A DNA stretch of 64,000 nt. Origin: Thermoanaerobaculia bacterium (GTDB lineage: Bacteria > Acidobacteriota > Thermoanaerobaculia > Multivoradales > Multivoraceae). Every line of letters begins with the position of its first letter. Position 1 is the stretch's first letter. The position numbers were made by a program, and so were the translations under genes. Under the pieces are notes generated by a model. It was not told where the DNA came from. It ran no database searches and saw nothing but the letters and a program-made list of their open reading frames with translations. The stretch covers positions 115,439 through 179,438 of the forward strand of contig JAJEHN010000037.1 in NCBI GenBank assembly GCA_022823665.1, written 5' to 3'. Positions 41,561 through 43,678 of the stretch are shown one piece after another.

Positions 41561-43678
41561 TCACCTGCCGCCTCCGAACCGCTTCGGGACGAACCGCACC
41601 GCCTCGTCGATCGGCAGGGACCGCGTCGCGTTACCAACGCGGAGCCAGAAGGCCGCTTGCTGTCCCTTCTGTTCGACGTAGACCGGGTGGTCGCTCGGCT
41701 CGACGGTCACCTGGCAGATATCGCGGGCGTCAATCTGGTGGAAGTTCACGACCAGGAAAGACGAGGCGGTCGCTTCGCCGAAGGCCCGAACGAAGATCTG
41801 CTGCAGATGGAGCTCAAAGCCGTCCCGATCGGGCTTCCTGCTCAAGGACTCGAAGTCGCGCCGAAGGCCAAGAGGCTCGCCGTCGTCACCGACGCCGATG
41901 AGCAGGGTCCCGCCGTCGCCGTTCAGGAAGCCGGCCACGGTCTTGATCGTCATGGCCTCGATCACCTTGTTTACATGCTGTTCTTTGAGGTCCCAGCGCA
42001 GGCTGGACTTGAACTCCAGTGCGTCGCTCTCGCCGCCGGCGATGAGGTCCCGAACGTACTGCTCGCTGTGTCGGTCGGCACCCTCGGGCGGCAGCCAGGA
42101 GGCGATGAACTCGTTGGCTGCTTCGGCCAGAAGCCCGCGGCGCGCGGCCAGGAAGTCGAGGAAGTTCTCCGGCTTCCACAGATCCGGGTCCAACGGGACG
42201 GACTGGGCGCGCAGGGTGCCGGGCTGCGTCTTGTCCACCAGCGGCAGGTAGTCCGCGGGAGATGATTTGCGCACCTCCAGCGGGGCCTTCCGCGTCAAGA
42301 GAACCCGGTTCGCCACAGCGTTGATGCGTCGGCTGTCCGTCATCCCGGCCTCCTCGAGGATCTTCCTCGGGAAGACGTGGTGACGCTCCCCGCCGGCGCT
42401 TTGGCCCGTGGCGCGGTCGTAGACGTGGACGCCGGTGAACCAGTCGCGGGCGTTCCGGTGCCGGGCGACTACTCGCACGAGATAGGCGACGGCTGAACTG
42501 ACGGTCGCCCGGTCGAGGTCGCCCTCTTCCAGGACCACGCGGCCGCGTTCGCGAAGGATGGCCGCCTCCAGTTCCGGGACCGGATCCGGATCACCACCTG
42601 CCACCAGAGCCACGTCCTGCTGCAGCTTGGTCTCGGCGGAGCCGGAGTAGCGGGACCAGAGGGCGGCAAGGAACATCCAGCGGATGAACCGGCGGCGAAT
42701 GGTCTCGTTGGGGAACCGGCCGCCCTGCCGCGCAAGGTAGACGGTCGCCGGAATGAGCATGGTCGTCGTTGGCAGGTCGCGCGGGCTGGAGACCAGCGCT
42801 TCATGGCGCAGCACGCCCACCAAGTGCTCAAGTGCTGGCTGAAGCCGGCTCCAACCCTTCTGGAGCGTCTCGGCTGGGGTTCGCAGAAAGGACCCTTCAA
42901 GGAGAACGGACCCGGTCGCCAAACCGGCCAGGCAGCGGACGAGGAAGTCGAGGTCGAATGGGAAGCCGTTGTCCCCCAGTTTCGCGCTGAAGGCGCGTAG
43001 CTCGCCACGAGCCTCGGGCCACAGGCTGCAAATGTGTGCGATGGCGAGATCCGCCTTGGTCAGCGGCGTGCCGGCGCTGTTCACGCGGTTGAAGATGCCG
43101 ACGACTTCGTCCACGGTGTAGTCCTCGTCGGAGACATGGTCGACGGCGTAGGTGTAGTTGCGGATGCCGTCGAGGTCGGCGAGCCGCGCCAGGTTCGGTT
43201 CCAGCGTTTCACGCTGCTCCTGCTCCATGGTGTGGAGGCTGCTGACGAACGTCCCGAGGCCCTGTCTCAGAAAGTCATGAACGCTGATCCAGGCGGGATT
43301 GTTGAGCATCTGCGACTTCTGGTAGAAGCGGAACTCCTCAGTCTGCACGTTGAAGTGGAGGTCGAAGAACAGGGACTCGCCCTCGTAGAACGGCGGCGGC
43401 TTCCCTTCGAAGAGTGTGTAGAGCGAGGTCAGTCGCTGCTGGCCGTCGAGGAGCAGAAGCGAACTACCTTCCTCCGACGCCTCGGCGCCGCGCACCTTGG
43501 ACGGCTTGTAGGTCTTCCAGATCAGCAGATGCCCGGTCGGATGCCGCCGGTACATCGACTGCACCAGTCCGCGCACCTGGTCGCGTCGCCAGACGTAGCC
43601 GCGCTGGAACTCCGGCAGGAGAATCTCGCCACGGTCGATCTGGGCGAGCAACTCGTGGACTTGTCTCGTGTCAGGCAT
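41561..43678 (-). CDS. GmrSD-family type IV restriction enzyme (DUF262 + DUF1524 His-Me) fused to C-terminal AlbA_2/Schlafen-like domain
   Basis: DUF262 motif LLPEFQRGYVWRRDQV, DGQQRLTSL. DUF1524-like ERHHVFPRK...NRVLLT. C-terminal ALEFKSSLRWD...GFLNGDGGTLLIGVGDDGEPLGL (AlbA_2/Schlafen). Confidence 0.75.
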   Translation of the reverse strand: MPDTRQVHELLAQIDRGEILLPEFQRGYVWRRDQVRGLVQSMYRRHPTGHLLIWKTYKPSKVRGAEASEEGSSLLLLDGQQRLTSLYTLFEGKPPPFYEGESLFFDLHFNVQTEEFRFYQKSQMLNNPAWISVHDFLRQGLGTFVSSLHTMEQEQRETLEPNLARLADLDGIRNYTYAVDHVSDEDYTVDEVVGIFNRVNSAGTPLTKADLAIAHICSLWPEARGELRAFSAKLGDNGFPFDLDFLVRCLAGLATGSVLLEGSFLRTPAETLQKGWSRLQPALEHLVGVLRHEALVSSPRDLPTTTMLIPATVYLARQGGRFPNETIRRRFIRWMFLAALWSRYSGSAETKLQQDVALVAGGDPDPVPELEAAILRERGRVVLEEGDLDRATVSSAVAYLVRVVARHRNARDWFTGVHVYDRATGQSAGGERHHVFPRKILEEAGMTDSRRINAVANRVLLTRKAPLEVRKSSPADYLPLVDKTQPGTLRAQSVPLDPDLWKPENFLDFLAARRGLLAEAANEFIASWLPPEGADRHSEQYVRDLIAGGESDALEFKSSLRWDLKEQHVNKVIEAMTIKTVAGFLNGDGGTLLIGVGDDGEPLGLRRDFESLSRKPDRDGFELHLQQIFVRAFGEATASSFLVVNFHQIDARDICQVTVEPSDHPVYVEQKGQQAAFWLRVGNATRSLPIDEAVRFVPKRFGGGR

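What the first reader, a model, noticed from the sequence alone, without database searches (positions are those of the whole stretch)
41561..43678. GmrSD-type type IV restriction enzyme fused to a Schlafen/AlbA_2 domain, inserted inside the helicase-methylase-ATPase operon
The N-terminus has DUF262 motifs (PEFQRGYVW, DGQQRLTSL). The middle has a DUF1524 His-Me nuclease motif (ERHHVFPRK). The last ~130 aa carry the AlbA_2/Schlafen signature (GFLNGDGGTLLIGVGDDG). GmrSD enzymes normally cut modified DNA; here one sits between a helicase and a DNA methyltransferase on the same strand. The embedded nuclease would need to tolerate the cassette's own methylation mark. The Schlafen-type appendage is an uncommon addition.
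Basis: partly seen in the sequence, partly recalled or inferred. Interest (0 to 1): 0.6.

Follow-up and report, generated by a model that had tools for sequence, protein, structure and literature searches.

The report
Schlafen-tailed GmrSD-like gene inside Hma
This gene encodes a BrxU/GmrSD-like anti-phage protein with a Schlafen-type nuclease at its end, sitting inside a helicase-methylase-ATPase (Hma) defence operon; both the fusion and this kind of nesting were already described in 2024-2026, so it is a new example of a known thing.

Summary
It has four parts:
- a DUF262/ParB-like NTPase with an intact DGQQR motif;
- a helical linker;
- a divergent DUF1524/HNH-like domain, which gets no Pfam hit but aligns to BrxU along its whole length;
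- a C-terminal Schlafen/AlbA_2 domain with the catalytic Ex4ExK...D motif intact.

It lies between HmaA and HmaB of a complete Hma system, which a 2026 paper renames "Type-1 BR".

Both features are published. GmrSD-like genes embedded in Hma were reported by Payne et al. 2024; PADLOC's HEC-05 model hits this protein at 5.5e-41. DUF262-Slfn fusions make up 1.8% of 5,930 prokaryotic Schlafens, and one of them, EcoSlfn7, defends E. coli (Nat Microbiol 2026). The appendage is therefore not rare.

What this analysis adds:
- A clade at least 61% identical across phyla is usually, but not always, associated with one Hma subtype, at varying positions.
- Its divergence tracks that of HmaA.
- The residue matching BrxU's catalytic His is His in only 59 of 118 orthologues, and the distal Asn is lost. 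The Schlafen and NTPase motifs are invariant.

Most likely the GmrSD-like part acts as sensor or switch and the Schlafen nuclease as effector. This is inference, not shown. Novelty: new member of a known kind.

The parts
41561..43678 (-). The gene in question: a 705-aa DUF262 / helical linker / HNH-like / Schlafen (AlbA_2) fusion protein
   Evidence: ORF and translation. Pfam PF03235 and PF04326. PADLOC HEC-05 E=5.5e-41 and PDC-M55C 2.2e-24. AlphaFold model with pLDDT 83.6. An identical protein occurs on a 669-kb metagenome scaffold.
43034..43660 (-). DUF262 / ParB-Srx-like NTPase domain (aa 7-215), with PEFQRGYVW and DGQQR motifs
   Evidence: PF03235 E=1.9e-29. D78, G79, Q80, Q81 and R82 are invariant in 118 of 118 orthologues. 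They align to BrxU D98-R102; Q101A and R102A abolish BrxU defence.
42479..43033 (-). All-helical linker (aa 216-400), as in BrxU
   Evidence: Helices in the model, pLDDT about 80-95. Aligns to BrxU residues 219-433.
42089..42478 (-). Divergent DUF1524/HNH-like (His-Me) domain (aa 401-530): strand ERHH 431-434, N453, N457, strand 458-461. The distal Asn is replaced by P466.
   Evidence: No PF07510 hit. The profile alignment places H433/H434 opposite BrxU D474/H475, and N457 opposite N509. In 118 orthologues H433 is His in 116; H434 is His in 59 (Y 43, R 9, L 3, F 3, S 1); position 466 is P 63, S 45, N 4.
41618..42031 (-). Schlafen/AlbA_2 nuclease domain (aa 550-687) with E550-x4-E555-x-K557 and D598
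   Evidence: PF04326 E=1.2e-14. The domain model has pLDDT 96.3. All top 29 PDB matches have the AlbA_2/Schlafen fold: DIP2311, the SAMD9 tRNase domain, SLFN13/14/5/11/12. The profile alignment to SLFN11 places E550, E555 and D598 at E209, E214 and D252. E550, E555 and K557 are invariant in 118 of 118.
43742..47107 (-). HmaA: SNF2 helicase with a C-terminal NOV_C / PD-(D/E)xK nuclease
   Evidence: PADLOC HmaA E=5.6e-172. Pfam SNF2-rel_dom, Helicase_C and NOV_C. An IEVK motif is present.
40888..41526 (-). Second embedded gene: 212 aa, no family assignment
   Evidence: Called as a gene in the source assembly. A GAGGAGGAGGG sequence lies just upstream of the ATG. No Pfam, PADLOC or NCBIfam hits. 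Found only here and in L003, at 73% identity.
37836..40817 (-). HmaB: DUF1156 amino-methyltransferase (DPPY at aa 533; motif I VVDPFAGGGS)
   Evidence: PADLOC HmaB E=1e-108. PF06634. Motifs. The start at 40817 follows the assembly's gene call.
34959..37775 (-). HmaC: DUF499 ATPase
   Evidence: PADLOC HmaC E=2.6e-94. PF04465.

Best explanation
The gene encodes a BrxU/GmrSD-like protein (PADLOC 'HEC-05' type) that carries a prokaryotic Schlafen nuclease at its C-terminus. This is the published 'DUF262-Slfn' class of bacterial Schlafens. It is carried as an embedded auxiliary defence gene in an Hma system (also called Type-1 BREX-related).

Proposed mechanism, by inference. The DUF262 NTPase, the helical linker and the HNH-like domain form a nucleotide-gated module that engages DNA, as in BrxU, where NTP binding converts an interlocked dimer to monomers. 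This module senses infection or foreign or modified DNA. The Schlafen domain then acts as the effector and cuts tRNA or other RNA, which shuts down translation. This gives a second defence layer that does not depend on Hma's methylation-based discrimination. In this particular protein the HNH site still has its His-His dyad and may add some DNA cleavage, but across the clade that site is not maintained.

Shown here: the domain identities, the state of each motif, the embedding, and the distribution. Inferred: the division into sensor and effector, RNA as the substrate, and the independence from Hma.

The confidence of 0.6 is a blend: about 0.9 for the identity and the embedding, about 0.45 for the mechanism.
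For: Identity: Pfam DUF262 and AlbA_2; PADLOC HEC-05 at 5.5e-41; BrxU is the best solved relative by sequence profile (1.4e-47) and by fold (1.7e-15).

Schlafen domain: the fold matches only AlbA_2/SLFN/SAMD9 structures. Ex4ExK is present and invariant in 118 orthologues. This motif is catalytic in SLFN11 and in RorSlfn5, and a DUF262-Slfn fusion (EcoSlfn7) reduces T7 plating about 540-fold (PMC13056530). T7 DNA is unmodified (my own knowledge), which argues against a purely modification-dependent mechanism for that relative.

HNH site: the residue matching BrxU's essential H475 is His in only 59 of 118 orthologues, and the distal Asn is present in 4 of 118. Those orthologues remain intact, full-length and highly conserved elsewhere, so their function cannot depend on HNH catalysis.

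Embedding: HmaA, this gene, a 212-aa gene, HmaB and HmaC lie on one strand with 34-70 nt gaps and no intergenic terminators. Payne et al. 2024 report that GmrSD-like genes are frequently embedded in Hma and that embedded cassettes are usually autonomous defences. A 2026 NAR survey lists ParB-HNH and Schlafen RNases as auxiliary or backup effectors of BREX and BR loci. The gene also occurs without Hma (L099, and L098 next to a Type ISP enzyme), which is consistent with autonomy.
Against: No biochemistry exists for this protein or for its clade. The window protein itself keeps H433-H434 and N457. BrxU N519A, a mutant next to the distal Asn position (the profile aligns that position to N518), still cuts DNA in vitro. 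So the HNH may be active and could be the main effector here.

Among 117 representative clusters, HNH degeneracy is no more frequent in Schlafen-fused proteins (13 of 46) than in unfused ones (15 of 71); Fisher p=0.39. There is therefore no statistical sign that the Schlafen domain 'replaced' the HNH.

AlbA_2 domains can also act as nucleic-acid binders; the SAMD9 domain was first solved as a DNA-binding domain (7KSP). I could not obtain the EcoSlfn7 sequence, so I do not know how close it is to this protein.
Confidence: 0.6

Rival explanations
1. It is a classical GmrSD/BrxU-type type IV restriction enzyme. The HNH domain cuts modified phage DNA in an NTP-dependent way. The AlbA_2 domain is only an extra DNA-binding or recognition module.
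For: Full-length homology to BrxU. The H433-H434 dyad and N457 are present in this protein. DGQQR is intact. BrxU complements a 6mA-writing BREX system in the same way. AlbA_2 domains of SAMD9 and SLFN5 bind DNA (descriptions).
Against: The position matching BrxU's essential H475 is not His in half of the orthologues, and the distal Asn is lost in 97% of them. The Schlafen catalytic Ex4ExK is invariant, which would be unnecessary for a pure binding module. Pfam DUF1524 does not recognise the domain. EcoSlfn7 is most active against T7, a phage whose DNA is unmodified (my own knowledge).
Confidence: 0.25
2. It is a functionally integrated fourth subunit of this Hma subtype, for example a regulator or a sensor of Hma inhibition, rather than an autonomous defence gene.
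For: Of 11 independent contexts holding homologues at least 59% identical, 8 are inside an Hma locus of the same subtype. Pairwise divergence of this protein tracks that of HmaA (Mantel r=0.87, p=0.0004; r=0.75, p=0.003 after collapsing orthologous loci). In three HmaB-anchored samples it was embedded once, and once a distant relative lay adjacent.
Against: Its position within the locus varies: between A and B, between B and C, or after C. One locus of the same Hma subtype lacks it (L107). It also occurs alone or in other defence islands. None of 112 plasmid-borne DUF499 (HmaC) loci, all below 35% identity to this HmaC and so of other subtypes, is on record with it adjacent. The distance correlation could simply reflect shared vertical or horizontal history.
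Confidence: 0.1
3. It is a decaying passenger gene with no current function.
For: Related genomes show decayed copies: L002 is truncated at aa 504, L007 holds only fragments, and L100 is split by an IS element.
Against: The window copy is an intact 705-aa ORF with a ribosome-binding site, and all NTPase and Schlafen motifs are intact. Identity to relatives in other phyla is 61-94% over the full length.
Confidence: 0.03

Closest known systems
BrxU (E. fergusonii pEFER; PDB 7P9K), equivalent to PADLOC HEC-05; a GmrSD-family type IV restriction enzyme
   Same: The order of domains is the same: DUF262 NTPase, helical linker, HNH-like domain. The family profile aligns over BrxU residues 7-581 (E=1.4e-47) and BrxU is the best fold match. 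DGQQR and the R..S motif are conserved. Both are embedded in a methylation-based defence operon whose methylase writes 6mA.
   Different: Only about 19% identity. The dyad is HH rather than DH. The distal Asn is replaced by Pro, and the catalytic His is not conserved among orthologues. This protein has about 170 extra C-terminal residues forming a Schlafen domain. There is no Pfam DUF1524 hit.
DUF262-Slfn class of prokaryotic Schlafens, e.g. EcoSlfn7 from E. coli UC4224 (Nat Microbiol 2026, PMC13056530)
   Same: A DUF262 domain fused to a Schlafen nuclease with the Ex4(E/D)xK motif. Both lie in a defence-island context. EcoSlfn7 has been shown experimentally to protect against phages.
   Different: The paper does not mention Hma embedding. 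Mechanism was worked out only for a different fusion, RorSlfn5 (Ig-like domain plus Slfn).
Hma-embedded candidates (HEC-05, HEC-06) of Payne et al. 2024 (bioRxiv 10.1101/2024.01.29.577857)
   Same: A GmrSD-like gene nested between hma genes in the same orientation. The HEC-05 HMM hits this protein at 5.5e-41.
   Different: The tested HEC-05 (99.2% identical to BrxU) and HEC-06 have a canonical (D/E)H motif. The paper does not mention Schlafen or AlbA (zero occurrences of either word).
Eukaryotic Schlafens (SLFN11/12/13/14) and the SAMD9 tRNase domain
   Same: The same AlbA_2 fold (TM-score normalised to the query 0.44-0.58). E550, E555 and D598 align to SLFN11 E209, E214 and D252.
   Different: This protein has a single lobe of about 140 aa rather than the two-lobed SLFN core. 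It is fused to a ParB/HNH-like module rather than to a helicase or a STAND module. Its substrate is unknown.
SspE (a phosphorothioate-sensing DUF262-DUF1524 nickase)
   Same: Same superfamily architecture. Weak hits only (PADLOC 4e-4; Foldseek 7DRI E=0.017).
   Different: Far more distant than BrxU. No ssp or dnd genes lie nearby.

Membership tests
GmrSD family (DUF262 + DUF1524) | N-terminal DUF262 domain (PF03235) | tested here: met
   E=1.9e-29, aa 7-215, 103.6 bits against a cutoff of 33.2.
GmrSD family (DUF262 + DUF1524) | DGQQR nucleotide-hydrolysis motif | tested here: met
   D78-R82 are present and invariant in 118 of 118 orthologues. They align to BrxU D98-R102.
GmrSD family (DUF262 + DUF1524) | C-terminal DUF1524 domain recognised by its HMM (PF07510) | tested here: not met
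   No hit at E<=0.01 on the whole protein or at E<=10 on aa 269-540. Relatives with the canonical motif reach 15-23 bits. Homology is recovered only through the profile alignment to BrxU and the fold match.
GmrSD family (DUF262 + DUF1524) | (D/E/H)-H catalytic dyad of the His-Me finger | tested here: met
   H433-H434 lie opposite BrxU D474-H475. However, H434 is His in only 59 of 118 orthologues.
GmrSD family (DUF262 + DUF1524) | Distal Asn (or H/E/D) ligand after the second strand | tested here: not met
   Position 466 is Pro here; across orthologues it is P 63, S 45, N 4. The wider family has N. BrxU N519A, next to the aligned N518, still cuts DNA in vitro, so this loss is not decisive for activity.
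GmrSD family (DUF262 + DUF1524) | NTP-dependent cleavage of modified DNA | not testable with these tools
   Needs biochemistry.
Prokaryotic Schlafen nucleases (pSlfn), DUF262-Slfn class | Schlafen/AlbA_2 domain (PF04326) | tested here: met
   E=1.2e-14, aa 550-687. Domain model pLDDT 96.3; the top 29 PDB matches are all AlbA_2/SLFN/SAMD9.
Prokaryotic Schlafen nucleases (pSlfn), DUF262-Slfn class | Catalytic Ex4(E/D)xK motif | tested here: met
   E550-SDAL-E555-F-K557, invariant in 118 of 118. Aligns to SLFN11 E209/E214.
Prokaryotic Schlafen nucleases (pSlfn), DUF262-Slfn class | Fusion to DUF262 | tested here: met
   Both domains lie in one ORF.
Prokaryotic Schlafen nucleases (pSlfn), DUF262-Slfn class | tRNA/RNA cleavage and phage defence | not testable with these tools
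   Shown only for RorSlfn5 (tRNA cleavage) and EcoSlfn7 (defence) in PMC13056530.
Hma system (Type-1 BR) with an embedded gene | HmaA helicase, HmaB DUF1156 methylase and HmaC DUF499 ATPase together in one locus | tested here: met
   PADLOC E=5.6e-172, 1e-108 and 2.6e-94.
Hma system (Type-1 BR) with an embedded gene | The extra gene lies between hma genes in the same orientation | tested here: met
   The order on the minus strand is HmaA, this gene, the 212-aa gene, HmaB, HmaC.

The most novel reading that the evidence does not exclude
In this cross-phylum clade the GmrSD scaffold may have given up HNH catalysis. It would then serve purely as an NTP- and DNA-gated switch for a Schlafen RNase, functionally coupled to one Hma subtype, for example firing when Hma's helicase-nuclease engages DNA or is inhibited. 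That would make it a dedicated abortive-infection backup arm ('HmaD') and not a free-standing type IV restriction enzyme.
Probability: 0.15. Interest if true: 0.55.

Novelty: new member of a known kind. Interest (0 to 1): 0.3.

Why it matters
There is little new in kind. Hma embedding of GmrSD-like genes (2024) and DUF262-Schlafen defence fusions (2025-26) are both published.

The modest value lies in linking the two. One well-conserved DUF262-HNH-like-Schlafen clade is a frequent companion of one Hma subtype, and it shows relaxed constraint on the HNH general base while the Schlafen and NTPase motifs stay invariant.

That makes one question testable: in these fusions, is the GmrSD module a sensor for a tRNase, or is it still a restriction nuclease? 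The mechanism of EcoSlfn7-type proteins is still unreported.

Tried and rejected
1. Pfam at E<=10 on the middle region, and NCBIfam on the whole protein, gave no hits. The DUF1524 assignment had to come from the profile alignment and the fold match instead.

2. Hypothesis that the Schlafen domain replaced a decaying HNH. A cross-tabulation of 117 representative clusters shows HNH degeneracy in 13 of 46 fused and 15 of 71 unfused proteins, Fisher p=0.39. It is not supported as a general rule.

3. 'Stand-alone' AlbA_2 proteins 55-62% identical to the C-terminus. These turned out to be fragments of fusion genes disrupted by IS elements (L100) or lying in a decayed Hma locus (L102). A genuine stand-alone family of about 270 aa (46% identity) sits in a context unrelated to defence.

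4. Plasmid collection. The 112 DUF499 (HmaC) records are all below 35% identical to this HmaC. The only record that also holds a DUF262 relative has it about 92 kb away. This gave no information about the window's Hma subtype.

5. The EcoSlfn7 sequence or accession could not be obtained; no supplementary files are held.

6. The terminator and promoter scan found nothing in the intergenic regions and fewer sites than shuffled controls.

7. The ORF 32371..34590 (-), 739 aa, was first taken for a sixth operon gene. It is spurious, being the antisense strand of the SSF transporter gene.

8. The first Mantel test included L108, whose adjacent DUF262-Slfn is only about 28% identical and belongs to a different lineage. 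It was excluded from the final test.
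Full report
OBSERVATION

The minus-strand ORF 41561..43678 (ATG start, 705 aa) exists as described. A GGAG sequence lies 8-9 nt upstream of the start. Pfam gives GmrSD_N/DUF262 (aa 7-215, E=1.9e-29) and SLFN_AlbA_2 (aa 550-687, E=1.2e-14). Pfam's DUF1524 model (PF07510) does not hit, even at E<=10 on the isolated middle region, and NCBIfam has nothing.

The window has about 68% G+C. An identical protein lies on a 669-kb metagenome scaffold. The nearest genomes are Candidatus Multivorans and Thermoanaerobaculia metagenome-assembled genomes (Acidobacteriota).

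SURROUNDINGS

The flanking genes on the same strand are these:
- HmaA (43742..47107): SNF2 helicase plus NOV_C/PD-(D/E)xK; PADLOC E=5.6e-172.
- HmaB (37836..40817): DUF1156 methyltransferase with a DPPY motif; 1e-108.
- HmaC (34959..37775): DUF499 ATPase; 2.6e-94.

A second embedded gene of 212 aa (40888..41526) follows the target. It has a strong Shine-Dalgarno sequence and no family assignment. Gaps between the genes are 34-70 nt, and no terminator-like site lies between genes, which is compatible with one transcript. Beyond HmaC, on the opposite strand, lie a HigB/HTH antitoxin pair and an SSF transporter. The 739-aa minus-strand 'ORF' there is the antisense of the SSF gene.

WHAT THE PROTEIN IS

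PADLOC's HEC-05 ('Hma-embedded candidate 5') model matches aa 66-524 at E=5.5e-41.

BrxU (PDB 7P9K) is the closest solved relative. phmmer gives 2.1e-13. A 47-sequence family profile gives 1.4e-47 over BrxU residues 7-581. Foldseek on the AlphaFold model (mean pLDDT 83.6) gives 1.7e-15.

The profile alignment places the window's H433-H434 opposite BrxU D474-H475 (the DHIYP motif), N457 opposite N509, and the family's distal Asn opposite BrxU N518. Relatives that keep the canonical HHIFPK...N...N motif give weak to borderline PF07510 hits at that position, up to 23.3 bits against a cutoff of 23. One Nostoc relative is annotated as DUF1524. The middle domain is therefore a divergent DUF1524/His-Me homologue, not a new fold.

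The C-terminal 168 residues model at pLDDT 96.3. Among the top 29 PDB hits they match only AlbA_2/Schlafen-fold structures: DIP2311, the SAMD9 DNA-binding/tRNase domain, and SLFN13, 14, 5, 11 and 12. A profile of this domain aligns to SLFN11 at E=4e-5. That alignment places E550, E555 and D598 on SLFN11 E209, E214 and D252. The sequence E550-SDAL-E555-F-K557 is exactly the catalytic Ex4ExK motif.

HOW COMMON IS IT

The architecture is not rare. At least 118 clusters (90% identity level) share at least 61% identity over the full length, and all carry PF03235 plus PF04326. In the 50%-identity representative library there are 13,272 relatives at E<=1e-3. Among the best 117 long ones, 46 carry the Schlafen motif. 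Many others stop at about 530 aa or carry other C-terminal extensions. Full-length relatives occur on Sinorhizobium and haloarchaeal plasmids.

STATE OF THE ACTIVE SITES

Counts across the 118 close orthologues:

| Site | State |
|---|---|
| DGQQR | 100% conserved |
| E550, E555, K557 | 100% conserved |
| Positions 597/598 | an acidic residue at one or both in all but one sequence |
| H433 (opposite BrxU D474) | His in 116 |
| H434 (opposite BrxU's essential H475) | His in 59; Y 43, R 9, L 3, F 3, S 1 |
| Position 466 (distal Asn) | P 63, S 45, N 4 |

In the wider family the pattern is reversed: the second His is at least 90% conserved. The window protein itself keeps HH but has P466.

In BrxU, D474A and H475A abolish cleavage and defence. 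N519A, next to the aligned N518, still cuts DNA in vitro (PMC8565348). HNH activity in this particular protein therefore cannot be excluded, but the clade as a whole does not maintain it.

I tested whether HNH decay goes with the Schlafen fusion in general. It does not: 13 of 46 fused against 15 of 71 unfused, p=0.39.

GENOMIC DISTRIBUTION

Among contexts holding homologues at least 59% identical:
- The gene lies between HmaA and HmaB in the window, L003, L006, L014, L015/16, L017, L019, L020, L021 and L106.
- It lies between HmaB and HmaC in L005.
- More distant Schlafen-bearing copies (43-55% identity) follow HmaC in L023 and L024.
- Schlafen-less relatives (about 40% identity) are embedded in a different Hma subtype in L029 and L032.
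- L088 has the GmrSD-like part and an AlbA_2 gene as separate genes between HmaA and HmaB.

It also occurs without Hma. In L099 it is flanked by IS elements. In L098 it sits at the same chromosomal spot as in the window, but with a Type ISP enzyme and an AAA_15 ATPase in place of Hma. On pSymA it sits near a type I R-M system.

Three loci were sampled by anchoring on HmaB instead of on the gene. One had the gene embedded. One lacked it, although it held many other embedded genes. One had a distant DUF262-Slfn (about 28% identity) on the opposite strand upstream of HmaA. At least 11 of the top 120 HmaB clusters share their longest-contig length with a cluster on the DUF262-Slfn list, used here as a proxy for lying on the same contig. 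Decayed copies exist in L002, L007, L100 and L102.

For nine loci with the embedded gene, pairwise distances of this protein and of HmaA correlate: Mantel r=0.87, p=0.0004. With the three orthologous loci collapsed, r=0.75, p=0.003. The gene is therefore a frequent, facultative companion of one Hma subtype and is largely co-inherited with it. It is neither an obligatory component nor a fresh insertion. The sample is small, and shared host history could produce the same correlation.

LITERATURE

- Payne et al. 2024 (bioRxiv 10.1101/2024.01.29.577857). Of 1,485 Hma systems, 62.7% carry embedded genes. GmrSD-like genes are 'frequently embedded'. HEC-05 is essentially BrxU and HEC-06 was validated. 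The words Schlafen and AlbA do not occur in the paper.
- Nat Microbiol 2026 (PMC13056530). It catalogues 5,930 prokaryotic Schlafens, of which 1.8% are fused to DUF262. The DUF262-Slfn protein EcoSlfn7 reduces T7 plating about 540-fold. The Ex4(E/D)xK motif is required in RorSlfn5, which cleaves tRNA.
- NAR 2026 (PMC12839542). It renames Hma as Type-1 BREX-related and lists ParB-HNH (GmrSD) and Schlafen RNases among auxiliary or backup effectors.
- Picton et al. 2021 (PMC8565348). BrxU cuts 5mC, 5hmC and glc-5hmC DNA and coexists with an N6mA-writing BREX system.

MECHANISM

Best supported: the protein is an embedded auxiliary defence. A BrxU-like, NTP-gated, DNA-engaging module controls a Schlafen nuclease effector that probably cuts tRNA or other RNA. 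The HNH site may contribute in this copy.

Shown: the domain identities, the motif states, the embedding and the distribution.

Inferred: the sensor/effector split, the substrate, and autonomy from Hma.

Rivals: a classical type IV restriction enzyme with AlbA_2 as a DNA binder (0.25); an integrated Hma subunit (0.1); a decaying passenger (0.03).

VERDICT

This is a new member of a known kind, of low to moderate interest. The clade-level loss of the HNH general base, set against invariant Schlafen and NTPase motifs, and the tie to one Hma subtype are the only points I did not find in the papers read.

Noticed in passing
window 40888..41526 (-): A second embedded gene of 212 aa lies between the target and HmaB. 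It has a strong GAGGAGGAGGG ribosome-binding site and no Pfam, PADLOC or NCBIfam match. It was found only in the window's own assembly and in L003 (73% identity), and not in other loci that carry the DUF262-Slfn gene.
   Followed up: partly
window 34315..34593 (+) and 34614..34907 (+): A HigB-like toxin and an HTH_3 antitoxin pair lie immediately beyond HmaC, convergent with the Hma operon, followed by an SSF transporter (32809..34290, +). The 739-aa minus-strand ORF 32371..34590 is a spurious antisense ORF over the SSF gene.
   Followed up: partly
window ~34.3-47.1 kb; L001/L098, L002, L003, L006, L007: The interval between the M14 peptidase and the SSF/M28 peptidase genes behaves as a defence hotspot in related Thermoanaerobaculia. 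It holds intact Hma in L003 and L006, and decayed Hma in L002 and L007. In L098 Hma is replaced by a Type ISP restriction enzyme, an AAA_15 ATPase and IS elements, with the DUF262-Slfn gene retained.
   Followed up: partly
L088 1153-6369: A split arrangement: HmaA, then a 522-aa-type GmrSD-like gene, then about 2 kb, then a separate AlbA_2/Schlafen gene (32% identical to aa 530-697), then HmaB. The two halves can exist as neighbouring genes in the same embedded slot.
   Followed up: no
L020 9588-14906: An 86%-identical fragment of the HmaB N-terminus (aa 36-79) sits right after the DUF262-Slfn gene. The full-length HmaB further downstream is only 47% identical, while HmaA and HmaC are 63-68% identical. 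This looks like a methyltransferase replacement within an otherwise conserved Hma locus.
   Followed up: no
L015/L016 8984-9921: Duplicated C-terminal HmaA fragments (aa 798-1111, including a free-standing 130-aa NOV_C gene) lie between HmaA and the DUF262-Slfn gene, next to a YhcG-type nuclease gene.
   Followed up: no
L100 4931-8498: A DUF262-Slfn gene is split by a DDE_5 transposase into a 396-aa GmrSD_N piece and a 165-aa AlbA_2 piece. This explains many of the 'stand-alone' AlbA_2 database hits with 55-62% identity to the C-terminus.
   Followed up: yes
window 40817 vs 40910 (-): The HmaB start is ambiguous. The longest ORF starts at 40910 and overlaps the 212-aa gene. The assembly's gene call starts at 40817, and homologues align from about aa 36 of the long form.
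   Followed up: partly
L014, L015, L017, L106, L107 (Hma loci of the same subtype): The HmaA-HmaB and HmaB-HmaC slots of this Hma subtype hold a changing set of other embedded genes: AAA_15/AAA_21 ATPases, OLD-like TOPRIM, PIN/DUF433 and MNT/HEPN pairs, a pentapeptide-repeat protein, DUF8426, a UDG-family protein and a C5 DNA methylase.
   Followed up: no
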